DNA of 64,000 nucleotides from a virus (Duplodnaviria; Caudoviricetes). The DNA lies in IMG/VR virus record IMGVR_UViG_3300035208_004923, positions 256,001-320,000 of that record. The stretch is one strand, 5' to 3'. Of this stretch, positions 643 to 30,342 are shown piece after piece; position 1 is the stretch's first letter; each line of letters opens with the position of its first letter. The notes under the pieces are model-generated. The model was not told the origin of the DNA and searched no databases. It saw nothing but the letters and a program-made list of their open reading frames with translations. Position numbers and translations under genes: made by a program.

Positions 643-1269
643 TTAATACATATTATTCGGTATGTATCTGCTTTTGATATAATCAGCAACAGCAATTAGT
701 GCTTTAGGCTCATGTTTGCATGCATCAGCAAGATCGTCAGCCATAACTTTCAATTGTGGCCATGCATCAATTTTACCCCACGAACTTGTGCCATTCATGA
801 AAAAACCTTGTACTTGGAATTTTGTATCTTTATATTCGCCAAATCCTCTTGATTTACCTGTTGTGTAATCCCATACTCTAAAGAATATAAATCCTAATGC
901 AGGATGTTCAAAGCAAACAACAGTAGTGTCTGTGTATTGTTTGTTTTTGATAATTTTAGATGGAGTCCATTCTTTTTTGTTTGGCGCAATTACTAAATTT
1001 GTTAGCACATCAACAACTTCTTTACCATTTTTGTACGCTTCTGTTGTGTATAATCTAATTGACGTATAATTCCATCCATCAGTTTTCCAATTACCTTTTG
1101 TATCAATTTCACGAAATTCATCAGGTGTTCCTGCACATCGTGGAACAACTTCTCCTTGATTAAAACCTGGTGCTTTATTGAAACGGTTGATGTAAACGTC
1201 CATGTCTCCAAATAATGTAGCACTTTCGTTTAATGCAAAATCTTCGATTGTTGGTATTCTTCTTATCAT
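643..1269 (-). CDS. Leader-family protein (putative internal head protein)
   Basis: N-terminus MIRRIPTIEDFALNES. Confidence 0.65.
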   Translation of the reverse strand: MIRRIPTIEDFALNESATLFGDMDVYINRFNKAPGFNQGEVVPRCAGTPDEFREIDTKGNWKTDGWNYTSIRLYTTEAYKNGKEVVDVLTNLVIAPNKKEWTPSKIIKNKQYTDTTVVCFEHPALGFIFFRVWDYTTGKSRGFGEYKDTKFQVQGFFMNGTSSWGKIDAWPQLKVMADDLADACKHEPKALIAVADYIKSRYIPNNMY

Positions 1270-1270
1270 A

Positions 1271-1492
1271 TTATATTTTGATTTTATTTATTTGTGTTTC
1301 TAATTCATCTGCAAAGTTTTGTTCAAAATCGCTGGCATCAGCTGATTTGTTATATGCAGTTTTCAAATAGTTATATGCATGGTCATCAAGTTGTTTGAAT
1401 TTTTTAGGGTCATGACCTAATAATACTAAATATTTATCGAATGATTCTTTTTCATCTATAAATTTGTCGAATGACGGTATTCTTTTTTCCAT
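1271..1492 (-). CDS. Leader-family small protein (start re-called at 1492)
   Basis: Internal ATG gives MEKRIPSFDKFIDE and removes the overlap with the upstream ORF. Confidence 0.65.
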   Translation of the reverse strand: MEKRIPSFDKFIDEKESFDKYLVLLGHDPKKFKQLDDHAYNYLKTAYNKSADASDFEQNFADELETQINKIKI

Positions 1493-8093: not shown

Positions 8094-8585
8094 TTATTTT
8101 TTTATCATATCACTGTTCCAAGCCAGTAACGTTGGAACAACACTTTGAAAATCATCTTCGGAATTTAACTCTTTTTTGTCTTTTAATGACTTGATGAAAT
8201 CTGATAATTTTGATACTATGGTATTAACGCCAATCCCAATATGATTACTATGTCCATCAAAATATACGTAATCGCCATTTATATCATCATACATTAAAAT
8301 AACAGGACGATTTGCCCATAATCTTGCTTGCGTTCTTGACCAAAGTTCTCGGTATTTGTATGGTGTTGACAGATTGCATTTAAAACCCATTTCCTCTACA
8401 TTTAATTGCAATTTGAAATTTTTTGTTGGCACGCCATAAATAATAGTAGGATTTTTAACGTAATTCGAAGCAAGAAATACTAAATTTTTAAGTGTTACTT
8501 CCGCATACGTTACTTCATAAATACTTTCGTTTATTATTTGACTTTCATTGATGAATTCGTCAAGTGTTGGTATTCTTCTTTCCAT
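8094..8585 (-). CDS. Leader-family protein
   Basis: MERRIPTLDEFINESQIINES. Confidence 0.7.
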   Translation of the reverse strand: MERRIPTLDEFINESQIINESIYEVTYAEVTLKNLVFLASNYVKNPTIIYGVPTKNFKLQLNVEEMGFKCNLSTPYKYRELWSRTQARLWANRPVILMYDDINGDYVYFDGHSNHIGIGVNTIVSKLSDFIKSLKDKKELNSEDDFQSVVPTLLAWNSDMIKK

Positions 8586-9655
8586 TATACTAATTAATTT
8601 TTAAAATGACTTTGTGCTTCTTTATCCGTGTAAAATTTCTTTTCAACAATATCATAGTATATGCTATCAGATGTTGAACCTGGAAAATAAAGTGAACAAC
8701 CGTTAGATCCTTGGCCCATATTTGGTGTTCCATGATTGTACGCAAAATGTACTGTTGTCCAAATATATGCAGGGAAAGTAAAAACACCGTTTTCTTCTTT
8801 TCCCATTGGCATTTTTCTACCAGAGAAATTATCAATTGTTACAGAATTCATGCCATATTGAAATATGCCGTATTCATGTCTGTTAATAGGTTTTATAGTC
8901 ATATCAATATATCCTCTTGAATTTTTAACATCAGATATATTAAGTTGTATTCCTATTTTTTTGTTAACCAAATCAGAAAATGCTTGGCCCCAATTTTTTA
9001 ATATAGATGCTTCCAATTCAGATTGTGAAGTTATCGTAGAGTCAGATACCATTTGTTCTGATTCGTTTAAAAATTGTGAAGATTCATTGATGAATTCGTC
9101 AAGTGTTGGTATTCTTCTTTCCATTATACTAATTAATTTTTAAAATGACTTTGTGCTTCTTTATCCGTGTAAAATTTCTTTTCAACAATATCATAGTATA
9201 TGCTATCAGATGTTGAACCTGGAAAATAAAGTGAACAACCGTTAGATCCTTGGCCCATATTTGGTGTTCCATGATTGTACGCAAAATGTACTGTTGTCCA
9301 AATATATGCAGGGAAAGTAAAAACACCGTTTTCTTCTTTTCCCATTGGCATTTTTCTACCAGAGAAATTATCAATTGTTACAGAATTCATGCCATATTGA
9401 AATATGCCGTATTCATGTCTGTTAATAGGTTTTATAGTCATATCAATATATCCTCTTGAATTTTTAACATCAGATATATTAAGTTGTATTCCTATTTTTT
9501 TGTTAACCAAATCAGAAAATGCTTGGCCCCAATTTTTTAATATAGATGCTTCCAATTCAGATTGTGAAGTTATCGTAGAGTCAGATACCATTTGTTCTGA
9601 TTCGTTTAAAAATTGTGAAGATTCATTGATGAATTCGTCAAGTGTTGGTATTCTT
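8544..9655. repeat. Tandem duplication with 539-bp period, bounded by a 34-bp leader-coding repeat present three times
   Basis: ttcattgatgaattcgtcaagtgttggtattctt at 8544, 9083 and 9622; the two encoded proteins are identical after residue 3. Confidence 0.9.
8594..9124 (-). CDS. Leader-family protein (duplicate copy)
   Basis: MERRIPTLDEFINES plus a body identical to 9133..9663. Confidence 0.7.
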   Translation of the reverse strand: MERRIPTLDEFINESSQFLNESEQMVSDSTITSQSELEASILKNWGQAFSDLVNKKIGIQLNISDVKNSRGYIDMTIKPINRHEYGIFQYGMNSVTIDNFSGRKMPMGKEENGVFTFPAYIWTTVHFAYNHGTPNMGQGSNGCSLYFPGSTSDSIYYDIVEKKFYTDKEAQSHFKN

Positions 9656-9663
9656 TGTTTCAT
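9133..9663 (-). CDS. Leader-family protein
   Basis: MKQRIPTLDEFINESSQFLNES. Confidence 0.7.
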   Translation of the reverse strand: MKQRIPTLDEFINESSQFLNESEQMVSDSTITSQSELEASILKNWGQAFSDLVNKKIGIQLNISDVKNSRGYIDMTIKPINRHEYGIFQYGMNSVTIDNFSGRKMPMGKEENGVFTFPAYIWTTVHFAYNHGTPNMGQGSNGCSLYFPGSTSDSIYYDIVEKKFYTDKEAQSHFKN

Positions 9664-9694
9664 TCTACTTAATTATTTTTGTATTTTTTACCAA

Positions 9695-9946
9695 TTAGTC
9701 AAGTGCTTTGCCATCAGGATATTCACCTTTTGCAATTGCGTATTTTACAATGTCAACAGTATCAAATGCAGGATGCGGTGCTATACCGCCATTGTATTTT
9801 TTGTCCCATTCTGCTACTGATGAAGGATTATTAATGTCAAATTCTTTATTTACGTATGCTTTAACAACATACATAGAAAACCACGATTTTGGGGTTCTTA
9901 CGCTCTCGTTAATAAATTGTTCTAATGTAGGTATTCTTTGTTTCAT
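9695..9946 (-). CDS. Leader-family small protein
   Basis: MKQRIPTLEQFINES; late-type motif at ~9962. Confidence 0.7.
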   Translation of the reverse strand: MKQRIPTLEQFINESVRTPKSWFSMYVVKAYVNKEFDINNPSSVAEWDKKYNGGIAPHPAFDTVDIVKYAIAKGEYPDGKALD

Positions 9947-9978
9947 TGATATACTTTATTTTATATATTCATATCAAA

Positions 9979-11328
9979 TTACAGTTTAGATGCAGCTAAT
10001 GTTGCAACAGCAGATCTTTCACCTTTTTCTAATGTGACATGAGCAAACATTGGTTCGCCTTTTAATTTTTCAATAACGTATGAAACGCCACAGCTGCTTT
10101 CTGATAAGAAAGGATTGTCGATTTGTTGAACATCACCCGTGAATACAATTTTACTTCCTTCACCAATTCTAGTGATAATTGTTTTCATTTCAAGCGGTGA
10201 TAAGTTTTGTGCTTCATCAACAATAAACAATACATTCGATAAACTTCTACCACGGATAAATGCCAAAGGTGTAACAACAATTTTATCTTTTAATGTAGTA
10301 TCATCAAATTTCTTTTGACCTTTTTTAACAGTGTAAGATTGCGTTTTGATGAATTTTAAGTTATCCCAAATTGGGTCCATGTATGGGCCAATTTTTGAAT
10401 CAACATCGCCTGGCAAGAAACCTAAATCTTTATTGTTTAAAGATACAATAGGTCTAGCAACATATATTTCATTAAAATCATCAATTTGTTCTAATGCAGC
10501 AGCTAATGCAATTAATGTTTTACCTGTACCTGCAGCACCTTGTATTGATACGATTTTGATTGAGTTATCTAAGATTGCATCCATTGCAAATATTTGTTCC
10601 GCATTTCTTGGCATAATATTTGCAGAACTTTTCTTTTCAACATGATGTAAACATTTATCAACAGTTGAATACGCAGCGATAACAGATTTCTTTCCGTTTT
10701 TAATAATGAAATATGTATTTGTTAAAATTTCACCTTCACCAGGAAAACCTTCAGATTCAGCAAATTCAGATAACGGAACACCATCAGTTTCAAGATACAA
10801 TTTATCAATAGCTTCGATAGGAGCGTTCTTTAATAAATATTTTCCAGTGAATCTTGTATCTGTATTACGAATAGAACCTGCAATATAATCTTCTGCTTGT
10901 AAGCTTAAAGATTTCGCTTTTACTCTCAAGTTAACATCTTTTGATACTAAGATAACATCTGCATCTGGGTATTTTTCTTGTTGCATTAAAGCAACATCTA
11001 GAATTCTATGGTCTGGTTTATTTTCGTGAAAAATCTTAACTGCACTATTTTCTGGTGTATCTCGTAAATACGAAACTTTTATTTTTCCCGCACCTGGCTC
11101 ATCAATGTCAACCCATGTATTTAATCCATCTTTTGTTGATAACTTATCAATTACTCTGGTAAATTCTCTTGCCTCATAATTGATAGGCTCATTACCTTTT
11201 TTGAAATTATCTAGTTCTTCAAGAACAGCGATTGGAATTACCACGTCATGTTCTGCAAATTTTTTGTATGCAGCGTGGTCGTGCAAGATGACACAAGTGT
11301 CTAGTACGAAAATTTTTCTTTTTTCCAT
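9979..11328 (-). CDS. phoH: PIN-PhoH ATPase (PhoH2/YlaK-like)
   Basis: PIN VLDTCVILHD..VLEELD; Walker A GAAGTGKT; LGFLPG, FIRGRSL, IVDEAQN, GDVQQID. Confidence 0.92.
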   Translation of the reverse strand: MEKRKIFVLDTCVILHDHAAYKKFAEHDVVIPIAVLEELDNFKKGNEPINYEAREFTRVIDKLSTKDGLNTWVDIDEPGAGKIKVSYLRDTPENSAVKIFHENKPDHRILDVALMQQEKYPDADVILVSKDVNLRVKAKSLSLQAEDYIAGSIRNTDTRFTGKYLLKNAPIEAIDKLYLETDGVPLSEFAESEGFPGEGEILTNTYFIIKNGKKSVIAAYSTVDKCLHHVEKKSSANIMPRNAEQIFAMDAILDNSIKIVSIQGAAGTGKTLIALAAALEQIDDFNEIYVARPIVSLNNKDLGFLPGDVDSKIGPYMDPIWDNLKFIKTQSYTVKKGQKKFDDTTLKDKIVVTPLAFIRGRSLSNVLFIVDEAQNLSPLEMKTIITRIGEGSKIVFTGDVQQIDNPFLSESSCGVSYVIEKLKGEPMFAHVTLEKGERSAVATLAASKL

Positions 11329-11344
11329 ATATGTAATTGTTTGT

Positions 11345-11902
11345 TTAAATGTTGATGAATTCTTTTTCTCCAGTTGTATGACTGTAAGTATACACTTCTG
11401 GATTAAATTGTTTTGGTTCAGTTAATTCTTTTGCGTATTTTTTACCACAACCTGGTTTTAAATATGCAATTGTTATGTGTGGGTGGTAATCAGGAAAATC
11501 TGATGTATATTCAAAGTTTTCACATATTTCTTTGTTAAGCTTAAATAAATTATCGCCTTGTATGTCGTACTTTAATACATCATATTTTGGATTTTCAAAA
11601 ATGCTAATAGCATCCGAACTTAATTCAATTGTTGATAAAGATGGCAGCATACTTTTTAACTTTTCCATGTCTGTATCTGCGTGTAAGCCGTAAAGTACAG
11701 TTACGTGTGGCTCTGTTTCAAATCCGTAATCTTCCTCTTCGGTATACAAATCATTGGCATCAACCAATGTATGAATAAAATTGTCCCATCCGTCGGTATT
11801 TACATTTACCATTAGACAACTATAATCGTATACTTGTTTTGATGCCTCATTAATTTGTTTTTGTTCAACAAATTCGTTTAATGTTATGATTCTTTGTTTC
11901 AT
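11345..11902 (-). CDS. 2H phosphodiesterase (T4 gp57B/Acb1-like) carrying the leader peptide
   Basis: Two HxT motifs (EPHVTVLYG, YHPHITIAY); N-terminus MKQRIITLNEFVEQKQINEA. Confidence 0.8.
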   Translation of the reverse strand: MKQRIITLNEFVEQKQINEASKQVYDYSCLMVNVNTDGWDNFIHTLVDANDLYTEEEDYGFETEPHVTVLYGLHADTDMEKLKSMLPSLSTIELSSDAISIFENPKYDVLKYDIQGDNLFKLNKEICENFEYTSDFPDYHPHITIAYLKPGCGKKYAKELTEPKQFNPEVYTYSHTTGEKEFINI

Positions 11903-11908
11903 ATGTAT

Positions 11909-12166
11909 TTATTTTAAAAAACTTCTAAGTCGTGGGTAAGTAGATAAGTTAAATCTTTCGTTTTTGAGCCATTCAATAAATTTGGATTTGTTATCAATAT
12001 TTTCGATGTCAATTTCATCATCGTATTCATTTGATTTTTTTGCAGATACGCCAATATCGCGTAATGTTTTTATGGTTTCCTCAGTGTCCTTTACTTGTAA
12101 TGAATCAATCATTCCATTTGATTTGCGGAGAGGGAAATCGGTTATAGATGATAATCTATTTTCCAT
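11909..12166 (-). CDS. Hypothetical protein with possibly degenerate leader
   Basis: MENRLSSITDF; late-type motif at ~12200. Confidence 0.45.
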   Translation of the reverse strand: MENRLSSITDFPLRKSNGMIDSLQVKDTEETIKTLRDIGVSAKKSNEYDDEIDIENIDNKSKFIEWLKNERFNLSTYPRLRSFLK

Positions 12167-12848
12167 AGCAACTTGTTTTTTTAATGTTTGTTTGTATTTT
12201 ATATATTCATTAAATCTGAAGCATGATGAATATCATAAAAACAAATGCTATATTGAATTTCTTTCCTGTATGATAATTTTGTAACAGCCTTCACCGCATT
12301 CTCGTTTTACTCTATCTGTTACTTGTTTATCATCTGCACATACTATAAGTGATTTCTTATCTTTTGCAACCAAGATTGGCATAAATGGCTTTCCGAAATA
12401 CATGTTAATTTCATCAGCCAAATCATACATTGATTTTTTTATTTCAACCTTTTCTGTTACAAATGTTTCTTCACTCGTGTAATCTAATGTTATAAATTCT
12501 TCTTCCATTTTGTTTCTTTTAATGAACTTTTATTTTTTGAATATACAACTACAATATCCATCTATTTGTTAACGATACGATCTTTAGATATCGTTTAATG
12601 AATGGATATTATTCAGTTGCTGTTTTTGCTTTTTCTTCCATCATTTCTTTCATGATGTAGTAAATATCGTATAAAACATTCACTTGTAAATAACTATCAG
12701 TATTTTGTGGTGCTACATTTAAAAACTTTATTGTAGGTATCTGTTCTTTTTCGATTACTTTTGAATTATTCACTAGATCATAAAACTTTTTGAATTTTTC
12801 TAGTTCATATTCTTGAATCCATATAGTTACTGTCATATACATAATTTA

Positions 12849-13637: not shown

Positions 13638-13638
13638 A

Positions 13639-15210: not shown

Positions 15211-15711
15211 TTACTTCATTATGTTTACAAACTTTCTGAAAAGTTTTTCTAATAAATCACCTGTTACTCTAACGTCTAATTTGTTTTGTTTATACGTAAC
15301 TGTTTCTCTTTCGTAATCAGTATTTTTGAAACTCCAAGCAGAAGGCGCAGTTGAACCCATTGCTTTTGCAAATCCTTCGATATCTTGAGGTTTAGCACGT
15401 GTAACAGTTAATGTTACTTGTTTGTTTTCAAAAATTTCAGAATCAATACCTACGTATATTCCTCTTTCAGATACACCAGAAATTGAATATGCGTCAAGAT
15501 CTTGATATACTTCTAAATCAAATTCATTAAATAAATTTGTAATAGTAACCCATAAAGCAACTTCTCTATCTGTTGGTTCTAATGGTTCATCTTCATTAAC
15601 TTCATTGAAGTTTTTTGCAACTTTTTGTGCATTCCAATTAAATGTTTTTCCTTCGTTTAATTGTTTTGATTCATTGATGTATTCATCAAGTGTTGGTACT
15701 CTGTTTGCCAT
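15211..15711 (-). CDS. Leader-family protein
   Basis: MANRVPTLDEYINESKQLNEG. Confidence 0.7.
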   Translation of the reverse strand: MANRVPTLDEYINESKQLNEGKTFNWNAQKVAKNFNEVNEDEPLEPTDREVALWVTITNLFNEFDLEVYQDLDAYSISGVSERGIYVGIDSEIFENKQVTLTVTRAKPQDIEGFAKAMGSTAPSAWSFKNTDYERETVTYKQNKLDVRVTGDLLEKLFRKFVNIMK

Positions 15712-18126: not shown

Positions 18127-18393
18127 TTAACTAACTCGTAAACCTTCTGCTTTTTTCTGTTCAATAAAAGCATTCATTTCTTCTTCAGTATCAAATAATT
18201 CAGCAGTAATATATCCGTATGATGGATTTTCAGCAGTTTTAATATCTTTTGCTGACATTTGTCCACGAACCATGTAATATGGATTTTTAAGTTGTGGATT
18301 ATCTCTTCGCAAAACAACAAACTTTTGTTTTGCTTTTGCTTCGTTTATGTTTTCATTAATGAAAACGTCTAATGTAGGTATTCTCTTTTCCAT
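18127..18393 (-). CDS. Leader-family small protein
   Basis: MEKRIPTLDVFINENINEA. Confidence 0.7.
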   Translation of the reverse strand: MEKRIPTLDVFINENINEAKAKQKFVVLRRDNPQLKNPYYMVRGQMSAKDIKTAENPSYGYITAELFDTEEEMNAFIEQKKAEGLRVS

Positions 18394-18402
18394 CGTTTAT
18401 TT

Positions 18403-18651
18403 TTATTTTAACCCTCGTCTTTCAACTTCTAGTTTAACAAGATTTCTTTGAAAGTCAAGTGGCGTATTCGGTATAGGATTATCTTTTGAATTATACCATA
18501 TCATTAAAGTTTCATCACTTAACTTTCTTATTTGTGTTTTGTATTCGGCTGGTGTCCAATCATCACCAAGCCATCCTAACGAACGAAGTATTTTTGTTAA
18601 ATTTGAAGATTCGTTAATGAATTCATCAAACTTCGGTATTCTCTTTTCCAT
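18403..18651 (-). CDS. Leader-family small protein
   Basis: MEKRIPKFDEFINES. Confidence 0.7.
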   Translation of the reverse strand: MEKRIPKFDEFINESSNLTKILRSLGWLGDDWTPAEYKTQIRKLSDETLMIWYNSKDNPIPNTPLDFQRNLVKLEVERRGLK

Positions 18652-19814
18652 TATTCGCCTTTATCTTTTTTAATTGCGGCTGCAACTGTATGAACTGCAG
18701 TTTCTGCTATTGTTGTTAAAAATAATCCTTTAGATACTAATTCCAAAGTATGTAATATCCATCCAATTCCTGGTATCAATACAATGATACTTGCAGCAAT
18801 TGCTGTTTCTCCTAAATGTTCAATCATGCCAGCAACACCATGTTCTAAAACATAGCCGGCAAGAATTCCAAACAATGTTCCCATAAACACAAATTCAAAT
18901 GGTCCTGGCGCGCCAATATATTTTGTTAACATTTGAGATGCCTTTTCAAACGCGTTGTTTGCATTTTTTGCAACAAATGCTTCAGCATGATGCATCCAAG
19001 TAAACGGAGGGAATTTTGTTAATTTTTTTGCAATTGATGATACTAATGGCAAATGAATTGTTCCATGCCCGTCAGATTCAAATACGTCATATCCTTCAGT
19101 AATCAATTCAGCCATTGATAAGTATACAGCTTTTTCCATTATGTATTCAATTGATTCATTTGTTTTTGTTGCTGCTGTAATTCCTTGTGTCATTGTTTTT
19201 GCAGCATCACCTGTAAAATATTGAATCGTATGTTTACACATTGCTCCAAGATTCTTTATTTCTTCTGATGTTTTATCAACACCATGTTTATGAATTTTTG
19301 GAGTTGCTGATTCAATAATTTTATCCTTCAATGGCGCATATTTAGATTGCGTTTGGTTATAAATCCATGCCCATGCTTTCTTTAAAAATGTTGCAATTGT
19401 ATTTGAAATAACTTTAACTAATCCAGTAATATCTGAACCTATTTTAATAAGTACTTCTTGTGTTTTCGATAACGCAGATTTTCCTTTTTCTTTTGCAGTT
19501 TCAATTGCTGCAGCTGCTTTATCTTTCCATTTTTGCGCTAAACTTTCGCCAGCTTCATTAATTGATAAACACCATTCATAAACAGCGTTTTCATTTAACG
19601 TTCCTTCAAATAAATCGTTTGTTCCGTTATTTTCTTTAATAATAACAAGTACAGATTTTTCAAGTTCGTTTAGGATTATTGACTTTTCTGACAACAAAGA
19701 TTCGATTAATTTTTCTTTGTGGTCTATTTGAATGAATTTATCATAATCTTTTTGAATTGCAATAAACGCATTCTCGTTTACATATTCGTTTAATGTAGGT
19801 ATTCTATGTTTCAT
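18651..19814 (-). CDS. Leader-family protein with C-terminal hydrophobic helices
   Basis: MKHRIPTLNEYVNEN; hydrophobic FVFMGTLFGILAGYVL and IAASIIVLIPGIGWIL. Confidence 0.7.
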   Translation of the reverse strand: MKHRIPTLNEYVNENAFIAIQKDYDKFIQIDHKEKLIESLLSEKSIILNELEKSVLVIIKENNGTNDLFEGTLNENAVYEWCLSINEAGESLAQKWKDKAAAAIETAKEKGKSALSKTQEVLIKIGSDITGLVKVISNTIATFLKKAWAWIYNQTQSKYAPLKDKIIESATPKIHKHGVDKTSEEIKNLGAMCKHTIQYFTGDAAKTMTQGITAATKTNESIEYIMEKAVYLSMAELITEGYDVFESDGHGTIHLPLVSSIAKKLTKFPPFTWMHHAEAFVAKNANNAFEKASQMLTKYIGAPGPFEFVFMGTLFGILAGYVLEHGVAGMIEHLGETAIAASIIVLIPGIGWILHTLELVSKGLFLTTIAETAVHTVAAAIKKDKGE

Positions 19815-19818
19815 ATTT

Positions 19819-20097
19819 TTAATTTCTCTTTTTTAATTTATTTAAAAGATTCTTTGGAATAAACGTCAAATCTGTATCTTCTTCAAACGAAACAAGCCAT
19901 TCGCTATAACTAATGTCTATGACGTCATCACGGTGCTTAGGATCTTTGATTATTTTTAAAAGTTCTTCCCATTCTTTATGTGCAGCAGAACTAGATTTAT
20001 CACCTTCAAATTCATAATCATCTGAATTCATAAAACTTAAAGGATGTGCAATATATTCGTTGACGAATTCATCAAGTGTCGGTATTCTTTTTTTCAT
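19819..20097 (-). CDS. Leader-family small protein
   Basis: MKKRIPTLDEFVNEY (second Met of the ORF track call). Confidence 0.7.
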   Translation of the reverse strand: MKKRIPTLDEFVNEYIAHPLSFMNSDDYEFEGDKSSSAAHKEWEELLKIIKDPKHRDDVIDISYSEWLVSFEEDTDLTFIPKNLLNKLKKRN

Positions 20098-20102
20098 ATG
20101 CA

Positions 20103-20663
20103 TTATTTTGGTTCAATTATTTCTTCTTTGTAACTTTTAAATGGAATAACATTCACACTTAATAATTTTTTAGTATTAAGGTTGCCACTTGGCAATTTTT
20201 CCAATGCAAGATGATATTTATTATATGCGTATTCTTTAACAATTTGAGACATGTCAGTATATTTTGTTGCTTTCAAGAACTTTGTTACTGTTCCTTTATT
20301 TTCAATTAAAAAACCAATTTCGTTTGCAGATTCAGATCCTTTTAATGCAAAAAAGTTAACATAATGACTTACAGATATTTCAGCGCAAAGTGCGTTTGCA
20401 ACTTCAAACACGCTTCTGAACTTTGGCGGTGGTGTACTACAAATATAATATACATTATCTCTACTTGTTGTGTATTCACCATTTTTCAAATTATTTAGAA
20501 AATATGATAAATCTTCCTTTGTTGCATTTTCTTTCATGCTATCATTTGATGCATAAAATGCAGAACCGTCTAACATACCAACCAATATAAATATTGGAGA
20601 TGGACTTGACATATCGGCACCTTCGTTTATAAAGTCATCTAGACTAGGTATTCTTTGTTTCAT
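20103..20663 (-). CDS. Leader-family protein
   Basis: MKQRIPSLDDFINEG. Confidence 0.7.
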   Translation of the reverse strand: MKQRIPSLDDFINEGADMSSPSPIFILVGMLDGSAFYASNDSMKENATKEDLSYFLNNLKNGEYTTSRDNVYYICSTPPPKFRSVFEVANALCAEISVSHYVNFFALKGSESANEIGFLIENKGTVTKFLKATKYTDMSQIVKEYAYNKYHLALEKLPSGNLNTKKLLSVNVIPFKSYKEEIIEPK

Positions 20664-20667
20664 ATTA

Positions 20668-20946
20668 TTAATTTAATTCGTCTTTTAATGCCTTTAAATT
20701 TGTTCCTCTATTATCGGCAGCGTGTACGATAACAATGCTATCTTTTATTGCAAGTAATGTACATTTATGTTTTGCAATTACGCCTTCCAATATTTCGATA
20801 TTAGTTCGGGTAACAGGTCTGTCTAGAAATATAGCTATTGCATCTGTTGCTGTTACAATATCTGCTTGTTCACGTTCAGCTTCTGATACATTGCTTACAA
20901 TTTCTTTACTGCTGAATTCTTCGATTGTTGGTATTCTCTGTTTCAT
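20668..20946 (-). CDS. Leader-family small protein
   Basis: MKQRIPTIEEF. Confidence 0.65.
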   Translation of the reverse strand: MKQRIPTIEEFSSKEIVSNVSEAEREQADIVTATDAIAIFLDRPVTRTNIEILEGVIAKHKCTLLAIKDSIVIVHAADNRGTNLKALKDELN

Positions 20947-20948
20947 AA

Positions 20949-21407
20949 TTATTTGATAAATTTAGGCATAACTGCTTTTAAGAATTTGATTATAATAGCA
21001 GGTGCATCGCTTGGTTTACTTACTTGAATTTCATAATCATTTGAACCTTTTTTGCTAAAACCAAGTTTTTTAGCAATCTTGATTGATTCTTCGGATGGAA
21101 TATCGAAAGTTGGGCCATTGCTCCAAACTGTTTGCGTTATCTCAGGAACTGCTGATTCAACATCGGCAAGAATTTGCATTCCAGTGATTTGCAATTTTTG
21201 TCCTCTATCACCCAAGTACATAAATATTTTTGATTGCGATTGGTCGCCATTATTTCCGTATATTGATATGCCAGCAAATAACGGTCCAACTACTTTTTTA
21301 AATGCAACATATGCAGGTTGTGGTTCTCTTTCAAGGTCAGCAGCTTCATTTATGTAATTTGCGTTTTCATTAATGAACTCGTCTAATGTAGGTATTCTTT
21401 GTTTCAT
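20949..21407 (-). CDS. Leader-family protein
   Basis: MKQRIPTLDEFINENANYINEA. Confidence 0.7.
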   Translation of the reverse strand: MKQRIPTLDEFINENANYINEAADLEREPQPAYVAFKKVVGPLFAGISIYGNNGDQSQSKIFMYLGDRGQKLQITGMQILADVESAVPEITQTVWSNGPTFDIPSEESIKIAKKLGFSKKGSNDYEIQVSKPSDAPAIIIKFLKAVMPKFIK

Positions 21408-21413
21408 AATAAA

Positions 21414-21668
21414 TTATTTTTTATCAGCCACGTCACTTAAAAGACCTTGATAGTCATTAAGTTTCGACAATTTTTTTTCTAAACTATCAATAGCAGATTG
21501 CGAACGTGCATTTGATATTTTATCTGTTACTATATAAATCTCTTCATCAATTATCTCTTGAATGTCTTTTATTTTTTCAATAGACATTGCATCTAATTCT
21601 TTTTCTTTATAAAAAGTTATTGAACTTTCATTGATAAATTCATCCAAACTTGGTATTCTTTGTTTCAT
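21414..21668 (-). CDS. Leader-family small protein, first gene of an 8-gene run
   Basis: MKQRIPSLDEFINES; late-type motif at ~21685. Confidence 0.7.
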   Translation of the reverse strand: MKQRIPSLDEFINESSITFYKEKELDAMSIEKIKDIQEIIDEEIYIVTDKISNARSQSAIDSLEKKLSKLNDYQGLLSDVADKK

Positions 21669-21746
21669 ACTAATTTGTTTATTTTATATATTCATAAATT
21701 AAAGCATAAAAAAAAAACGGAACTTTACGCTCCGTTTCAATTTAAC

Positions 21747-22798: not shown

Positions 22799-24508
22799 TT
22801 ATACTAAACCTCCAGCTGGAGTAGCAACGAAGAATGTGAAATACATTGTTTCTGGGTGGAAACCTGCTTCAACAAGAGCGTAACGAGATTTAACGGCAAC
22901 TTTCGGAGTCATTGTACCTTCAGCAATTGTTTGGATAGTTTCAGCCATCAAGTAAGGCATGTATTTTAATCCTGGTTCTTCATCAGCACCTTTACGTCCT
23001 ACTAATACACGAGTATCAGACCAAGACATGTTAGGGTCAACATATACAGTCATACCTGCAACAGCACCTACTGGGTAAAGTGAACCGTTGTTTTGGTTGA
23101 TTGTATTTGCCATTGGAGCAAATGTGAATTGTGCAGAATCTTGTAAGATTGTAGCGATTTGAAGGTTTGTAACAATGAAGTTAGCAGGACCTCTACGACC
23201 TCTTTGAGAGATTACGTTACCACCAGCAAGAATTCTTGAGAAAACTCTACGTTGAACAGTCCATTGGTTTTCAAATGCTGCAGAAGGATTAGCTCCAGCG
23301 AACAATGACATAACAGGAACAGACATTGTAGTAGTTGCACCGTCTTTATTGTTGAATGTTTGGTAAGTTGTACTAGCACTTGGGTCAGTTTGCAAGTTGA
23401 AGTTTTGACCTTCTACTTCAGCAAATGTATTGTGGTTAGTCCATCCTAAAGCAAACGCTCTTGATAAGATGTGTTTGTTGATTGATTGAGATACTTCGTT
23501 CACTAATGAATTTTCAACCATACCTACAACATCGATACCGAATTGACGGTTAAGATCTTGTATTTGTTCAGTTGTTACAGTAGCAGCAGCTTGGTAAGTT
23601 TCAGCTTCAACGAACTTAGTGAATGTTTGAAGACCCATAGTTCTGTAGTAAGTTTGTTCACCAATACCTCTTCTCATTGGTTCTGGGTTAGAAGCACCAT
23701 TTGCATAGTTTCCAGTCCAAGCATCACCATCTTGAGCACCAGCACCAGTATATCCTTGGATATGATCTTCTAAAGCTTTCACTAAAGAAGCAGTTGCAGT
23801 ACAAGGTGTAGCAGCAGGAGAACCATCAGAATCAATTGTAAATGCAGATCCAGTGTTGAATACATCAGCAACTAATAAATGAGGAGTTGAGATAGAAGCA
23901 GTTTGCCAAGCAGAACCGATTTTATATTTTTCGCCAGATTTAAGAGCACGGAAGATTTTGTATGCATCGATACGAGATTTACCAATATAGATTAACTCTA
24001 AGTTGTTTGATCCTGAAGTTGCAACATATTTAGTACCTACTGTGTAAGAACCACCGATGTTAACTTTAATCATTGTTGGGTTTTCTGCGTTTGCATCAGA
24101 TGGGTCGTTTGGTAATTTACCACCAGCATAAACGTAGTCAAGGTAAGTTAATACTCCTGAAGGACCGTTCATTGGAATTACAGGTACAATATCAAAACCG
24201 ATTGTTCTAGCACCAACTTGGATTGCAAGAGGTAAAAGAGAAGGGAATTTGTCACCTGAACCAGTTGCAGCGCTATGGAAAGCAGCACCACCAGCAACTT
24301 GACCTGTAGCCACGTTACCCATACCTGGAGTGTTTTGTAAAGATGCAGCAGGCCATGCCCATCCGCCTACGAAAGAAGATTCATTCAAAGCGTGGAAGTG
24401 GCAATATTTTGATAACCAAGCAAGTTTACTTTTGTCTGTAATTTGCGTTTTTTCTTCTACGATTGGTGCCCATTCTTCGAAAATTTGTTTTTCGTTTAAA
24501 AGTTTCAT
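22799..24508 (-). CDS. gp23: Major capsid protein, T4 gp23-like (probable start MKLLNE at 24508)
   Basis: IVPVIPMNGPSG, QIQDL, RGRRGPANFIV, YMPY, PKVAVKSRYAL; strongly biased codon usage; terminator at 22740-22767. Confidence 0.93.
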   Translation of the reverse strand: MKLLNEKQIFEEWAPIVEEKTQITDKSKLAWLSKYCHFHALNESSFVGGWAWPAASLQNTPGMGNVATGQVAGGAAFHSAATGSGDKFPSLLPLAIQVGARTIGFDIVPVIPMNGPSGVLTYLDYVYAGGKLPNDPSDANAENPTMIKVNIGGSYTVGTKYVATSGSNNLELIYIGKSRIDAYKIFRALKSGEKYKIGSAWQTASISTPHLLVADVFNTGSAFTIDSDGSPAATPCTATASLVKALEDHIQGYTGAGAQDGDAWTGNYANGASNPEPMRRGIGEQTYYRTMGLQTFTKFVEAETYQAAATVTTEQIQDLNRQFGIDVVGMVENSLVNEVSQSINKHILSRAFALGWTNHNTFAEVEGQNFNLQTDPSASTTYQTFNNKDGATTTMSVPVMSLFAGANPSAAFENQWTVQRRVFSRILAGGNVISQRGRRGPANFIVTNLQIATILQDSAQFTFAPMANTINQNNGSLYPVGAVAGMTVYVDPNMSWSDTRVLVGRKGADEEPGLKYMPYLMAETIQTIAEGTMTPKVAVKSRYALVEAGFHPETMYFTFFVATPAGGLV

Positions 24509-24539
24509 TTTATTGAATTTTTTTATTTTAATGTTTGTT

Positions 24540-26591
24540 TTATCTGTTGAATCTATCAAGATTTGCTTTTACGCTTTCCATATAGCTTTTGCTATATCCA
24601 CGTTGTGCAGCTCCAGTTTCTTCAACAATTTGAGCATTTGCTGATTCGTTCAGCGTACCGTTGCCTTCAACTTTATGCAATCCACGAGTTTGCCAGAAAT
24701 TGATTACTTGTCGTTCAGTATTCAATGGGTACAATTTCGATTGTGAAGCAATTTGATTCTTTGCAGATTCAGTTAGAGATTCCCAAGTTGCTTTGTACTC
24801 CTCAGGCATTTTTTCTAACCATAGGTCAGATTTTGGTGCTAGAGATTGAGTTGCTGCTCTTTCAAGTAAAGCAGTCATTTCTTCTTTACTTTTGTGGTTG
24901 TTTTCATTGATAGACGATGCAATCTGTTGTTTTTGAATGTCTGTAAAAGAAATAAATTTCTTAACTTGTTCGCCATCTAAATTCTTTAAGAAAGGATAAT
25001 TTTCAATGTGTTCATTGATTGGATTCATCTTTTGTGTTTGGATAGATTCCAATAAGTTGTCAATTTTGCTTCCTAAAGAAGTATATTTACTTAATATGTT
25101 TTCTTTTTCATTAACAACAGCTTCATTAACAATTGGAGCAGTTGTGTTTGTTTTTACGCTTTCAGAAATTGCTTCAGCAAAACCTGCAACGTTTTCAAGA
25201 TCTTCACGAGTTGCAGCATTTTCACCTAAGTAATCAGCGTATACGTGAACTTCGTTTGTTTTCTCCATGATATAATCTTGGTAGTTCCATAAGTGATTAA
25301 TTTTTTCAGTAATTACTTCTTGGATATAAGATTGTGTTTCATGTAATTCTTTTGCTAAAACTTCTTCAGCATAATTTAAACCGTAATTTGCTTGTTCTGC
25401 AATTTTCTCAGAGTAAGCAATATTTTTTTCAAGTAACGGTCTAATTTTATCGTTTAAATAACCAGCAACATAATTATGATCTTCAGCAATTTTTTCAGTG
25501 TATGCAGCAACATGATTATGATCTTCTGCAATACGTTGTGTATAATCTGCTAACCAGTTATGATCTTCACCAATCAATTCAACATAATTAATTGTATCAG
25601 AAACATATTTAGAAAGTTCATTAGAATATTTCTTGATTGTAACAATTTCACCTTCAAGAACTTTAATTCTTTCATTTGTTTCATCGGTTGTAGATTCTTG
25701 TGGCTTAACAGATAAAGATTCCATTTTCTTAGTCATTTCAGCGATTGCCGATTCAAACTTTTCCATTTGTTCTTTAACATGTAAAGAATACTTGTACATA
25801 TCTTCAGCCGTAACAGTATTATTATTTTTTTCCATGCTTGATGAATTATTTTTATTATATATTGCTTCATTCAATGCATTTTTTTCAACTTGTGCATTTT
25901 GGGTTGAAGCAGGTTTTGTTTTCTTTGTTAAACTAAAATCATATATACTAAAATCAGCACCTTCAATTAATAAATCAGGATACTTATCAGTCACATCGTA
26001 TAAATTAATGCCATCAGCACCATTGAATCCTAATTCTTTATTTAATGAAGGTAATTCAGTTTCCATTACTAATCCTGAACAGATAGATTCGTATACACGT
26101 TCCATTTCAGCATTATCGCCAAATCCGCCATCCGCAACTAAATCATAAGTGAAGATTCTTTTGATTTTAACTTCTTTGTTTTCTTTAACAACACCTGCAG
26201 CTCTAGATGAAATACTAATAGGGAAACCTGAATCAACAAGTTTTCTAGCATTTAAACCAGCAGGGTCAGTATCTAATAATCGAATACGTCCTTTAAGTGT
26301 ACGTGTTTCTTTATCATACCAAATTTTTTCAACAAGATGTGAAATGTTTGCAAGACTTACATCGAATTTTTCAGGATGATCTAATTCACCAGCTAATTTA
26401 TTTCTTTTGATTTTTTCTTGTAAATATTCCAAGTGTGGCATGTATTCGTCTTCTTCGTAAATTCTATGATTTACGTTTTCTTTACCGAATACACAAAAAA
26501 TTCCTTCAAGAATATAATTGTCTTTATCAACAACTTTAAATTCATGACCAGATTTTTCAGTTAATAAAAATACCTTAGCGTTTTTTGACAT
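24540..26591 (-). CDS. gp21: Prohead protease (gp21-like) fused to a long coiled-coil scaffold (gp22-like)
   Basis: LEGIF..ENVNHRIY, GELDHP, SHLV, ISSRAAG, TYDLVADGGF; C-terminal helical region with 14-aa EDHN repeats. Confidence 0.88.
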   Translation of the reverse strand: MSKNAKVFLLTEKSGHEFKVVDKDNYILEGIFCVFGKENVNHRIYEEDEYMPHLEYLQEKIKRNKLAGELDHPEKFDVSLANISHLVEKIWYDKETRTLKGRIRLLDTDPAGLNARKLVDSGFPISISSRAAGVVKENKEVKIKRIFTYDLVADGGFGDNAEMERVYESICSGLVMETELPSLNKELGFNGADGINLYDVTDKYPDLLIEGADFSIYDFSLTKKTKPASTQNAQVEKNALNEAIYNKNNSSSMEKNNNTVTAEDMYKYSLHVKEQMEKFESAIAEMTKKMESLSVKPQESTTDETNERIKVLEGEIVTIKKYSNELSKYVSDTINYVELIGEDHNWLADYTQRIAEDHNHVAAYTEKIAEDHNYVAGYLNDKIRPLLEKNIAYSEKIAEQANYGLNYAEEVLAKELHETQSYIQEVITEKINHLWNYQDYIMEKTNEVHVYADYLGENAATREDLENVAGFAEAISESVKTNTTAPIVNEAVVNEKENILSKYTSLGSKIDNLLESIQTQKMNPINEHIENYPFLKNLDGEQVKKFISFTDIQKQQIASSINENNHKSKEEMTALLERAATQSLAPKSDLWLEKMPEEYKATWESLTESAKNQIASQSKLYPLNTERQVINFWQTRGLHKVEGNGTLNESANAQIVEETGAAQRGYSKSYMESVKANLDRFNR

Positions 26592-26613
26592 GTGATATAT
26601 GTTTTTATTTTAT

Positions 26614-26626
26614 TTTATATATTCAT
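26614..26626 (-). promoter_or_regulatory. Class III (putative late) promoter TGAATATATAA, representative
   Basis: Exact or near copies precede head, leader-family, endonuclease and lysin genes: ~1711, 9962, 12200, 16854, 21685, 26616, 30642, 33242, 36764, 38243, 55900(+). Confidence 0.75.
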
Positions 26627-27872: not shown

Positions 27873-28271
27873 CTATTTATATGTGTATGCAGCCAAACTT
27901 TTACCATATTTATCTGCAAATTCTGGCAACTTTGCATTTGGACATGAATCAATAATTTCTAATGGTTTTCCTTCAAACATTGGACGGTCGGATTGGTCTG
28001 CTTTAAATGATTGCGTTCCGCCTATGGGTTTCATTGATTTTTTTCCTGCCGTGAATACAACTATTGTTTTGATAATGTTTCCGTTGTAATCTTTATTTGC
28101 CCATATTTCAGCTGTTCCATCAGGCCATGTTTCATACACGTTGAAATATTTTGATGAACCGGTTTTGAGATTTAATGTTCCGATTGATGCAACAGCAGCA
28201 CCAGAATTATAACGTCTGTTATTGTTTGCTTCATTGATAAATTCATCTAATGATGGTATTCTTCTTTCCAT
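27873..28271 (-). CDS. Leader-family protein
   Basis: MERRIPSLDEFINEA. Confidence 0.7.
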   Translation of the reverse strand: MERRIPSLDEFINEANNNRRYNSGAAVASIGTLNLKTGSSKYFNVYETWPDGTAEIWANKDYNGNIIKTIVVFTAGKKSMKPIGGTQSFKADQSDRPMFEGKPLEIIDSCPNAKLPEFADKYGKSLAAYTYK

Positions 28272-28436
28272 AATATTTATATTTTTATTTTATATATTTC
28301 CTGGAAAAAAAGCATAAAAAAACGGATTACCTCTTTCGAAGTAATCCGTAATTTTTTTGGAGCCGAATGAATTGTTCGGCAACTCCACCACTTTGTTTAA
28401 TATTTTATGCGGTAAAACAAAGAAACCGCCTTTTCT

Positions 28437-30129: not shown

Positions 30130-30342
30130 TTAAAATGTTGATTGCATAATTAGTTTTTTAATATCTTCAATTAATGCTGATTTAGCAGCATCTGCGCCGG
30201 GTTTCATATAATTTTCTTTTATCATATGTTCGACAATAACTGTTGCAAGTACTTGCGCACCAGCAGGTTTTTTATCGCCCGCAACTTGAACCATTGCTTC
30301 ATTAACTGAATATTCTTCAATTGTTGGTATTCTTCTTTCCAT
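30130..30342 (-). CDS. Leader-family small protein
   Basis: MERRIPTIEEYSVNEA. Confidence 0.7.
   Translation of the reverse strand: MERRIPTIEEYSVNEAMVQVAGDKKPAGAQVLATVIVEHMIKENYMKPGADAAKSALIEDIKKLIMQSTF

What the first reader, a model, noticed from the sequence alone, without database searches (positions are those of the whole stretch)
11345..11902. Acb1-like 2H phosphodiesterase fused to the packaging leader: pre-loaded anti-defence enzyme
Seen: two HxT motifs (EPHVTVLYG, YHPHITIAY) behind MKQRIITLNEFVEQKQINEA. Established: T4 gp57B (Acb1) is a 2H enzyme that degrades CBASS cyclic nucleotides. Inference: it would be delivered from the virion before phage gene expression, and the other leader cargoes become candidate anti-defence proteins.
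Basis: partly seen in the sequence, partly recalled or inferred. Interest (0 to 1): 0.75.

Follow-up and report, generated by a model that had tools for sequence, protein, structure and literature searches.

The report
Capsid-tagged 2H phosphodiesterase of a megaphage
A 425-kb uncultured phage related to T4 makes an intact two-histidine (2H) phosphodiesterase with the phage's own "load into the head, then clip off" tag, so the enzyme is probably injected ready-made with the DNA. Whether it destroys immune signal nucleotides, as T4 Acb1 does, or trims cut RNA ends has not been measured.

Summary
Window 11345-11902 (minus strand) is a 185-aa ORF with two intact HxT motifs. Residues 26-185 are modelled as a 2H fold (pLDDT 88.8).

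Residues 1-19 carry the leader found on about 65 otherwise unrelated ORFs of this 425-kb contig, 18 of them in the window. The contig also encodes a T4 gp21-type (S77) prohead protease and a gp23-type capsid protein. The leader matches the T4 capsid-targeting sequence in its EF-[IV]-x-E core, and in this protein it ends in INE|A.

New here: 117 of 119 homologues have an N-terminal extension with an [LIVM]-x-E motif, usually 7-11 residues before the first strand. The extension is lineage-specific and is shared with other ORFs of the same phage. It can differ completely between enzymes whose mature parts are 85-90% identical. The same 2H clade also occurs as the last domain of giant polyvalent proteins.

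"Acb1-like" holds only loosely. Acb1-type chains are the best solved sequence matches (E 4.5e-6), but Pfam is borderline, hhalign covers only one lobe, and the fold does not discriminate between 2H families. Packaging and substrate are inferred, not shown.

Earlier notes of this scan report leader-tagged 2H enzymes in at least 13 other genomes. I found no paper describing this.

The parts
11345..11902 (-). Precursor ORF of the leader-tagged 2H phosphodiesterase (185 aa plus stop)
11846..11902 (-). Leader (propeptide), residues 1-19, MKQRIITLNEFVEQKQINE; predicted cut after E19 (INE|A). The usual first site at residues 12-14 is degenerate (VEQ).
   Evidence: leader PSSM score 35.3; second [ILV]NE site enriched among leader proteins; low pLDDT 55-65
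11348..11845 (-). Predicted mature enzyme, residues 20-185 (2H fold from residue 26)
   Evidence: AF2 model and fold searches
11699..11707 (-). First catalytic motif H66-V-T68
   Evidence: sequence; invariant in 61 homologues
11471..11479 (-). Second catalytic motif H142-I-T144, inside DFPDYHPHITIAY, the stretch shared with true Acb1
12193..12208 (-). Promoter-like motif GAATATATAAAATACA heading the three-gene run orf11909 - 2H - PIN-PhoH2
   Evidence: The motif occurs 58 times on C1 against 6-11 in shuffles. It also precedes the protease/capsid operon and at least 10 leader genes.
11909..12166 (-). 85-aa ORF just upstream, same strand, stop 6 nt before the 2H ATG; its N-terminus MENRLSSITDF looks like a decayed leader
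   Evidence: no family match
9979..11328 (-). PIN-PhoH2-type RNA helicase/nuclease gene, 16 nt downstream, no leader
   Evidence: Pfam PIN_4 + PhoH; NCBIfam PhoH2; linkage to the 2H gene is not conserved in relatives
24540..26591 (-). T4 gp21-type prohead protease (S77 domain at residues 23-140 of a 683-aa ORF), the predicted processing enzyme
22799..24559 (-). gp23-type major capsid protein; its N-terminal region holds LNE|S-type motifs like the leader's
   Evidence: Pfam Gp23 6.9e-37
8094..9946 (-). Four leader-tagged cargo ORFs (8094-8585, 8594-9124, 9133-9663, 9695-9946). The two 176-aa ORFs are identical over the 45 N-terminal residues listed, apart from residues 2-3.
15211..15711 (-). 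Leader-tagged cargo ORF (166 aa)
18127..21668 (-). Array of nine leader-tagged cargo ORFs just downstream of the capsid gene (18127-18393, 18403-18651, 18651-19814, 19819-20097, 20103-20663, 20668-20946, 20949-21407, 21414-21668)
   Evidence: no Pfam family
27873..28271 (-). Leader-tagged ORF (132 aa) upstream of the protease gene
643..1492 (-). Two leader-tagged ORFs (643-1269, 1271-1492)
30130..30342 (-). Leader-tagged ORF (70 aa, variant leader)

Best explanation
The gene encodes a catalytically intact 2H phosphodiesterase made as a precursor. Its first 19 residues are this phage's version of the T4 capsid-targeting sequence. The proposed sequence of events is inferred by analogy with T4 IPI, IPII, IPIII and Alt. 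The precursor is made together with the head proteins and taken into the prohead core by the leader. The gp21-type protease frees it by cutting after Ile-Asn-Glu19. It stays in the filled head and enters the host with the DNA, before any phage gene is expressed. In the cell it most likely hydrolyses a nucleotide second messenger of a host defence (a CBASS or type III CRISPR type cyclic oligonucleotide), as T4 Acb1 does. Shown here: the fold, the catalytic tetrad, the shared and swappable leader, the cleavage-type motifs, and the presence of the protease. Inferred: packaging, cleavage site, injection and substrate.
For: - Enzyme: there are two invariant HxT motifs. The AF2 model has pLDDT 88.8 with a 2H fold, at Z 11.6-13 to solved 2H enzymes.
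- Closest solved relatives by profile are Acb1-type enzymes: 9q2g at E 4.5e-6 and 7t26 at 0.0049, against a LigT-like protein at 0.026.
- hhalign against true Acb1 gives 94.6% probability and E 7e-8 over the DFxDYxPH[IL]T lobe. The Acb1 Pfam model hits 59 of 61 family members.
- Leader: about 65 ORFs on C1 carry it and none on the other contigs. Its codons vary synonymously, so selection acts on the peptide.
- The EF[IV]xE core matches the T4 ipII/ipIII leader MKTYQEFIAE, and the 19-residue length with I-x-E|A end matches ipI (PMC9026906).
- An S77 protease and a gp23-type capsid gene lie 11-15 kb away.
- A second [ILV]NE site occurs in 17 leader proteins, against 0.5% of control windows.
- Family-wide: 117 of 119 homologues have [LIVM]xE in the extension, and in 106 it lies 7-11 residues before the conserved Cys. 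Only 33% of control windows have the motif.
- Leaders are lineage-specific and shared inside each phage: 22 other ORFs in a complete 256-kb phage and 5 ORFs in a 322-kb phage.
- Leaders are unrelated (16-29% identity) between mature domains that are 85-90% identical.
- All three relatives that are at least 90% complete have an S77 protease.
- The same clade is the C-terminal domain of polyvalent proteins, with an LxE motif at the junction. That protein class was predicted to be injected (PMC5512222).
- The operon carries the promoter-like motif that also heads the protease/capsid operon.
- The phage's RNA ligases and CCA-adding enzyme have no leader.
Against: - No virion proteome or cleavage map exists for this phage or any relative.
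- The generic family PF13563 scores higher (31.7 bits) than Acb1 (27.3 bits, cut-off 27).
- hhalign covers only 45 columns.
- Structure comparison ties Acb1 with Usb1, LigT and VP3.
- No Trp-bearing C-terminal lid like that of T4 Acb1 is visible.
- The same clade is fused to CCA-adding nucleotidyltransferases in polyvalent proteins, and the phage has RNA ligases. Both fit an RNA-repair role.
- This protein's leader is one of the more divergent copies: Pro6 is Ile and the first cleavage site is lost.
- In one 311-kb relative the extension is not shared with other ORFs.
- Some viral 2H groups showed no activity on a messenger panel (10.1101/2025.08.21.671373).
- In T4, one CBASS is triggered late, by the prohead protease (PMC12991175), so early delivery is not obviously needed.
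Confidence: 0.5

Rival explanations
1. The delivery route is the same (leader, head packaging, cleavage, injection), but the enzyme is an RNA-end healing 2',3'-cyclic phosphodiesterase. It would open the cyclic phosphate ends left on tRNA or mRNA by host metal-independent defence nucleases, as the first step of repair.
For: PF13563 and PHROG 755 ('RNA ligase') are the top family labels. There is a weak hit to ThpR/LigT TIGR02258. Relatives are fused to PolyA_pol/CCA-adding domains in polyvalent proteins. The phage encodes two RNA-ligase-family proteins and a CCA-adding enzyme. A PhoH2-type RNA helicase gene is the next gene downstream.
Against: TIGR02258 scores 23.5 bits against a cut-off of 65.7. 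The RNA ligases and the CCA enzyme lie 37 kb or more away and carry no leader, so a packaged healing enzyme would arrive without its partners. No neighbour is conserved with the 2H gene in 80 related loci. Iyer et al. found that these 2H versions never associate with RNA ligases (PMC5512222). Profile matches favour Acb1-type chains over LigT.
Confidence: 0.25
2. The N-terminal extension is not a packaging tag for this protein. It is either an N-terminal lid over the active site, as in the Burkholderia phage PDE-9, or a tag with another role, and the enzyme works in the cytoplasm after ordinary expression.
For: PDE-9 (9q2g), the best solved sequence match, uses its first 15 residues as a lid (10.1101/2025.08.21.671373). 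The extension is present in nearly all homologues at a fixed distance from the fold. This copy of the leader is divergent. In one relative the extension is not shared with other ORFs. T4 Acb1 and the Maribacter phage homologue work or exist without any leader.
Against: About 64 unrelated proteins of the phage start with the same peptide. Unrelated extensions sit on nearly identical enzymes, which a co-evolving lid would not allow. The extension has low model confidence. Its constant feature is a protease-type [LI]xE motif, and the capsid protein's N-terminal region carries LNE|S-type motifs as well.
Confidence: 0.1
3. It is a packaged offensive RNase of the Usb1 type. It would trim or cut host RNAs, leaving cyclic phosphate ends, to shut the host down at the moment of injection.
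For: Usb1 structures give the nominally highest Z (13.0). Iyer et al. proposed this as one of two roles for the 2H domains of injected polyvalent proteins (PMC5512222).
Against: The Z scores of all 2H families are tied within 1.5. Sequence identity to Usb1 is 10%, against 17-18% to Acb1. No sequence-profile match to Usb1 was found.
Confidence: 0.07

Closest known systems
Phage T4 Acb1 (gene 57B) and Erwinia phage FBB1 Acb1 (PDB 7T26/7T27)
   Same: Both have a compact 2H fold and an HxT/HxT tetrad. They share the second-lobe signature D-F-x-D-Y-x-P-H-I-T-x-x-Y, with T4 F107/Y110/H113/T115 matching F136/Y139/H142/T144 here. Both are encoded next to internal-protein genes: T4 57B sits beside ipI, as already noted in PMC9117128.
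   Different: T4 Acb1 is 152 aa and starts directly with the fold, with no cleavable leader. All 68 close Acb1 relatives are 99-162 aa, mostly about 150. Only 45 columns align by hhalign. No Trp-bearing C-terminal lid is seen here. The activity of this protein is unknown.
T4 internal proteins IPI, IPII, IPIII (and Alt) with the capsid-targeting sequence
   Same: Unrelated proteins share a short N-terminal propeptide that ends in [LI]-x-E and is removed by the gp21 protease. They are packed in the head and injected, and IPI* is an anti-restriction protein (PMC3012670, PMC9026906). The leader core EF-I-x-E is the same, and the 19-residue propeptide ending I-x-E|A is the same as in ipI.
   Different: The leader here is 14 residues (19 in this protein) instead of 10. 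It sits on about 65 proteins instead of 3-4. The cargo here is a recognisable enzyme of the 2H superfamily. Nothing has been tested experimentally.
2H domains of polyvalent proteins (Iyer, Burroughs, Anand, de Souza, Aravind 2017, PMC5512222)
   Same: That paper predicted injected 2H phosphoesterases that degrade defence nucleotides or RNA. The same clade as this protein forms the last domain of such proteins, for example with PolyA_pol and ART-PolyVal domains in L053.
   Different: This protein is a solo domain delivered by a T4-type leader rather than by fusion to MuF, portal or other modules. The [LI]xE motif at the polyvalent junctions suggests that a prohead protease releases the domain, not only the zincin peptidase proposed in that paper.
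Viral 2H PDE-11 (Maribacter phage Colly_1 gp180) and PDE-9 (Burkholderia phage BCSR5, PDB 9Q2G) of Doherty et al. 2025 (10.1101/2025.08.21.671373)
   Same: Colly_1 gp180 is the nearest homologue in a cultured phage (35% identity; BFVD TM 0.72-0.82) and is listed as PDE-11 in their Supplementary Table 1. It was run on their nucleotide panel (Supplementary Fig. 3 legend). PDE-9 is the best solved sequence match.
   Different: Colly_1 gp180 has no leader; it starts 8 residues before the fold. The PDE-11 result is only in figures that I could not read. PDE-9's N-terminus is a lid, not a shared tag.
Vibriophage ICP3 Gp15 ejectosome protein (10.1101/2025.07.23.666291)
   Same: It is a virion protein delivered at injection that blocks CBASS.
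   Different: It is an essential structural ejection protein that inhibits the CapV effector stoichiometrically. It is not an enzyme and is not leader-tagged cargo.

Membership tests
2H phosphoesterase superfamily | Two H-x-T/S motifs on the two lobes | tested here: met
   H66-V-T68 and H142-I-T144 are present and invariant in 61 homologues
2H phosphoesterase superfamily | Two-lobed alpha+beta 2H fold | tested here: met
   AF2 pLDDT 88.8; Foldseek probability 1.00 and VIA Z 11.6-13 to Acb1, VP3 PDE, Usb1 and LigT. This is a predicted structure, not a solved one.
Acb1 (Pfam PF23474) | Score over the curated Pfam cut-off, as the best-scoring family | tested here: inconclusive
   27.3 bits against a cut-off of 27, but PF13563 scores 31.7 on the same stretch. 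Among family members Acb1 hits 59/61 and PF13563 hits 56/61.
Acb1 (Pfam PF23474) | Full-length profile similarity to experimentally defined Acb1 proteins | tested here: inconclusive
   hhalign A1 vs A2 gives 94.6% probability and E 7.3e-8, but over only 45 columns of the second lobe
Acb1 (Pfam PF23474) | Base-stacking aromatic residues (T4 Y12, W74, F107) and a C-terminal lid with W147 | tested here: inconclusive
   F107 aligns with F136. W74 probably corresponds to the invariant F102, judged by eye. No Trp occurs in the C-terminal 30 residues. No structural superposition with ligand was possible.
Acb1 (Pfam PF23474) | [quoted passage not shown] | not testable with these tools
   Needs a biochemical assay
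T4-type capsid-targeting-sequence cargo (internal proteins) | Short N-terminal peptide shared by otherwise unrelated proteins of one phage | tested here: met
   About 65 ORFs on C1 and 0 of 2647 ORFs elsewhere in the assembly. The same holds with other leaders in two related complete phages.
T4-type capsid-targeting-sequence cargo (internal proteins) | Peptide ends in the gp21-type motif [LI]-x-E | tested here: met
   LNE at 8-10 and INE|A at 17-19. 117 of 119 homologues have the motif, against 33% of control windows.
T4-type capsid-targeting-sequence cargo (internal proteins) | gp21-type (S77) prohead protease and gp23-type capsid protein in the same genome | tested here: met
   PF03420 at 44.8 bits and PF07068 at 128 bits
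T4-type capsid-targeting-sequence cargo (internal proteins) | Protein present in virions in N-terminally processed form and injected | not testable with these tools
   Needs virion proteomics and infection assays
ThpR/LigT RNA 2',3'-cyclic phosphodiesterase (TIGR02258) | Score over the NCBIfam equivalog cut-off | tested here: not met
   23.5 bits against a cut-off of 65.7
ThpR/LigT RNA 2',3'-cyclic phosphodiesterase (TIGR02258) | Gene linkage to RNA ligase or polynucleotide kinase | tested here: not met
   The RNA-ligase-family genes lie at window 48477-49046 and at C1:372638-373174, neither adjacent nor leader-tagged. No neighbour is conserved in 80 loci.

The most novel reading that the evidence does not exclude
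A whole clade of 2H phosphodiesterases, with at least 545 loci in IMG/VR viral contigs, is routinely shipped inside the capsids of T4-superfamily jumbo phages. Each phage lineage bolts its own exchangeable address tag onto the same enzyme, or places the enzyme as the last domain of a polyvalent protein. If so, destroying host nucleotide signals in the first seconds of infection, before any phage gene is read, would be a common and so far undescribed counter-defence tactic. The tag would then serve as a sequence-only read-out of each phage's injected arsenal.
Probability: 0.35. Interest if true: 0.78.

Novelty: new variant of a known kind. Interest (0 to 1): 0.6.

Why it matters
All known phage enzymes that degrade defence signals (Acb1, Apyc1, ring nucleases) are thought to act only after they are expressed. 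A pre-loaded enzyme would close the gap between DNA entry and first gene expression. It would still work if the host blocks transcription or translation.

The 2H enzyme is the only one of the 18 tagged proteins in this window with a recognisable family. It therefore gives the first functional handle on a cargo set of about 65 proteins.

The swappable tag also offers a simple experimental route to loading chosen proteins into large phage heads, as was done with the T4 tag.

Finally, the [LI]xE motif at the domain junctions of polyvalent proteins suggests that prohead proteases cut these proteins apart. That idea is directly testable.

Tried and rejected
- Megablast of 14 kb of the window against 50,697 phage records found no match.
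- A single-sequence search of PDB sequences gave only E 0.86 to Acb1. A profile was needed.
- Fold comparison did not separate the 2H families. Foldseek E-values ran from 1e-5 to 1e-3 and VIA Z from 11.6 to 13 for Usb1, Acb1, VP3, LigT and the poxvirus cGAMP PDE.
- Neighbourhood conservation failed. None of 10 neighbouring proteins recurs next to the 2H gene in 82 related loci, except PhoH in two of them.
- Presence of an S77 protease does not predict a leader. The leaderless Maribacter phage Colly_1 and LR756504 both give S77 matches, the latter below the Pfam cut-off.
- In the 311-kb relative G005 the extension MKLMDIINE is not shared with other ORFs, although that phage has another N-terminal family of the MKKIxITESQLK type.
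- No CD-NTase (SMODS) was found on the other contigs of the bin (88.8% complete). This says little, because binning does not prove they are the host.
- The assay result for 2H PDE-11, the nearest cultured homologue, exists only in figure images that I could not read.
- PF09511 (T4 Rnl1) gave no match, but its controls did not ring either, so this is uninformative.

Full report
**What is there.** Window 11345-11902 on the minus strand is a 185-aa ORF. Pfam places it in the 2H clan, with PF13563 at 31.7 bits and PF23474 (Acb1) at 27.3 bits, both with a 27-bit cut-off. PHROG 755 also matches. The large protein database holds 181 homologues at E<=1e-3. In an alignment of 61 of them, H66, T68, H142 and T144 are invariant. 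An AlphaFold2 model built on that alignment has mean pLDDT 88.8. Residues 26-185 form the fold. Residues 1-25 have low confidence (55-65) with a helix at 8-19.

**What genome this is.** The window is bases 256001-320000 of a 425,361-bp contig (C1, 31% GC) that was binned with 77 other contigs. The window contains a T4 gp21-type prohead protease: an S77 domain at the start of a 683-aa ORF, 24540-26591. It also contains a gp23-type major capsid protein at 22799-24559. C1 is therefore a very large phage of the T4 superfamily. Its nearest database relatives for this protein are the uncultured phage records of 480-640 kb (LR756502/04/08/11, LR745206) and the Maribacter phages Molly and Colly.

**The leader.** A position-specific score built from 26 strict matches separates about 65 ORFs of C1 (score 7.8 or more) from all others; the next-best scores -3.6. 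None of 2647 ORFs on the other contigs reaches 10. Earlier notes of this scan on the same genome give 63-69, which I reproduced independently. Eighteen of these ORFs lie in the window. The consensus is M-x-x-R-I-P-T-L-D-E-F-I-N-E followed mostly by Ser. The codons vary synonymously, so the peptide is what is conserved, not the DNA.

I read the T4 leaders from the T4 record. They are MKTYQEFIAE|A for ipII and ipIII, and MKTFKEFTSTTTPVSTITE|A for ipI. The E-F-I-x-E core is the same here. In T4, residues 4 and 7 of the tag direct targeting and residues 8 and 10 direct cleavage (PMC9026906). The corresponding positions here are L8, F11, I12 and E14.

The 2H protein carries a divergent copy that scores 35.3. 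Pro6 is Ile, and the first site reads VEQ instead of INE. A second site, INE|A, follows at residues 17-19, which gives a 19-residue propeptide, as in ipI. A second [ILV]NE site within residues 15-26 occurs in 17 leader proteins, against 0.5% of control windows. This resembles the redundant cleavage sites described for giant-phage propeptides (PMC9026906). The N-terminal region of the capsid protein also carries LNE|S-type motifs.

**The tag on this enzyme family is general, positioned and exchangeable.** This is the main new result.
- Of 119 homologues that could be anchored on the conserved Cys of the first strand, 117 have an [LIVM]-x-E motif in the N-terminal extension. In 106 of them it lies 7-11 residues before the Cys. 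Only 33% of length-matched control windows have the motif.
- The extensions differ by lineage. Examples are MKHIKLFEEFVTE, MNLQENIxRIxxMMGxxxE, MKxYxDFLNE and MQxLAGxITE.
- Each type is shared with other ORFs near the 2H gene in 80 IMG/VR loci.
- I fetched three related phage records whole. In a complete 256-kb phage the 2H leader is shared by 22 other ORFs, where fewer than one is expected by chance. In a 322-kb phage five ORFs share it, with no internal occurrences. In a 311-kb phage it is not shared.
- All three of these records that are at least 90% complete encode an S77 protease.
- Pairs of enzymes whose mature parts are 85-90% identical carry unrelated leaders of 16-29% identity. An integral lid would not behave this way, whereas an address tag matched to each phage's head would.
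- The homologue in Maribacter phage Colly_1 has no leader at all, and neither does T4 Acb1. The tag is therefore not part of the enzyme.

**A second delivery form.** In six loci the same 2H domain ends a much larger ORF. In three of these it ends an open frame of 1378 to 2033 residues, and in two of those three the frame includes PolyA_pol/CCA-adding domains. One of them (L053) also has an ART-PolyVal domain. In two other loci a zincin-like HExxH segment precedes the 2H domain. In five of the six an [LI]-x-E motif lies a few residues before the 2H fold. These are polyvalent proteins, a class predicted to be injected with phage DNA. The authors of that work had already proposed that the 2H domains of these proteins, and their solo versions, degrade defence nucleotides or act as RNases (PMC5512222).

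**Expression context.** The 16-nt motif GAATATATAAAATAAA occurs 58 times on C1 with up to two mismatches, against 6-11 in shuffles. It nearly always lies 2-30 nt upstream of an ATG. It precedes the protease/capsid operon, at least ten leader genes, and the three-gene run orf11909 - 2H - PIN-PhoH2, where it sits at 12193 with one mismatch. The motif contains a T4-late-like TATAAA(A)TA. Co-expression of the 2H gene with the head genes is an inference from this shared motif.

**Is it Acb1?** It is Acb1-like, but membership of that family is not shown.
- The family profile finds Acb1-type chains first among solved structures: 9q2g at 4.5e-6, 9q2y at 2.9e-4 and 7t26 at 0.0049. A LigT-like protein follows at 0.026.
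- Profile-profile comparison with 17 true Acb1 proteins gives 94.6% probability and E 7.3e-8, but only over the 45 columns around D-F-x-D-Y-x-P-H-I-T.
- T4 F107, Y110, H113 and T115 match F136, Y139, H142 and T144 here.
- Structure comparison ties all 2H families at Z 11.6-13. The lowest rmsd (2.6 Å) and highest identity (18%) are to FBB1 Acb1.
- The ThpR/LigT equivalog model scores 23.5 bits against a cut-off of 65.7.
- Viral 2H enzymes differ widely in substrate, and two structural groups were inactive on a messenger panel (10.1101/2025.08.21.671373).
- That study assayed Colly_1 gp180 as "2H PDE 11". The result appears only in figures that I could not read.

**RNA repair as the main rival.** The phage has two RNA-ligase-family genes and a CCA-adding enzyme, and relatives of the 2H domain are fused to CCA-adding domains. 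Against this, those genes lie 37 kb or more away and carry no leader. No neighbour is conserved with the 2H gene. A healing enzyme injected without a kinase and a ligase could not complete a repair.

**Comparison with what is known.**
- T-even internal proteins are a diverse set of injected anti-defence proteins that share only the capsid-targeting sequence (PMC3012670).
- T4 acb1 lies next to ipI, as already noted in PMC9117128.
- A virion ejection protein that blocks CBASS is known (10.1101/2025.07.23.666291).
- Six literature searches found no paper describing a leader-tagged or virion-packaged Acb1-like 2H enzyme.
- Earlier notes of this scan report leader-tagged 2H enzymes in at least 13 other genomes, with the same open question about substrate.

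**Verdict.** This is a new variant of two known things: T4-type capsid cargo and viral 2H phosphodiesterases. None of ten other tagged proteins in the window matches any Pfam family, so this enzyme is the one interpretable member of the cargo set. My odds are:
- intact enzyme: about 0.95;
- head packaging through the leader: about 0.7-0.75;
- a nucleotide-signal substrate: about 0.45, against about 0.35 for RNA cyclic-phosphate ends.

Noticed in passing
window 12193-12208, 9955-9970, 21678-21693, 26609-26624, 28284-28299 and 53 more sites on contig C1: The 16-nt motif GAATATATAAAATAAA sits only 2-30 nt upstream of start codons on the coding strand, 58 times against 6-11 in shuffles. If it is a -10-type promoter element, many transcripts would be leaderless or nearly so. 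It also heads several GIY-YIG-like homing-endonuclease ORFs.
   Followed up: partly
window 24540-26591 (-): The S77 protease domain occupies only residues 23-140 of a 683-aa ORF. Relatives have ORFs of 606 and 769 aa, while two other relatives have ordinary ones of 227-252 aa. The long C-terminal part may be a fused scaffold or core protein.
   Followed up: no
L053:6737-10870, L061:4700-10798, L073:8066-12916, L039:3232-4371: Large and giant multidomain ORFs end in this 2H clade and have an [LI]-x-E motif just before the 2H fold. Other domains include CCA-adding/PolyA_pol, ART-PolyVal, cytidylyltransferase-like and a zincin HExxH segment. The junction motif suggests that the prohead protease, not only the zincin peptidase, cuts these proteins apart.
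   Followed up: partly
window 8594-9124 and 9133-9663 (-): Two tandem 176-aa leader-cargo ORFs are identical over the 45 N-terminal residues listed, apart from residues 2-3, which points to a recent duplication. A third cargo ORF, 8094-8585, has the same upstream 30 nt.
   Followed up: no
window 11909-12166 (-): The 85-aa ORF just upstream of the 2H gene starts MENRLSSITDF. This looks like a decayed copy of the leader that lacks the INE cleavage site.
   Followed up: no
window 48477-49046 and 59049-59432 (-); C1:372638-373174: The phage encodes two RNA-ligase-family (PF09414) proteins and a 654-aa PolyA_pol/CCA-adding enzyme, none of them leader-tagged. This amounts to an RNA-repair kit outside the cargo set.
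   Followed up: partly
protein P0095: One homologue's leader, MSKAFKLFCEFIAEQNISE|A, contains the exact T4 EFIAE core followed by a second I-x-E|A site. This is the same two-site layout as in the window's protein.
   Followed up: no
window 31287-32495 (-), 12849-14961 (-): A nicotinate phosphoribosyltransferase gene and two glycosyltransferase genes (GT25 and a GT1-like) lie among the head and cargo genes.
   Followed up: no
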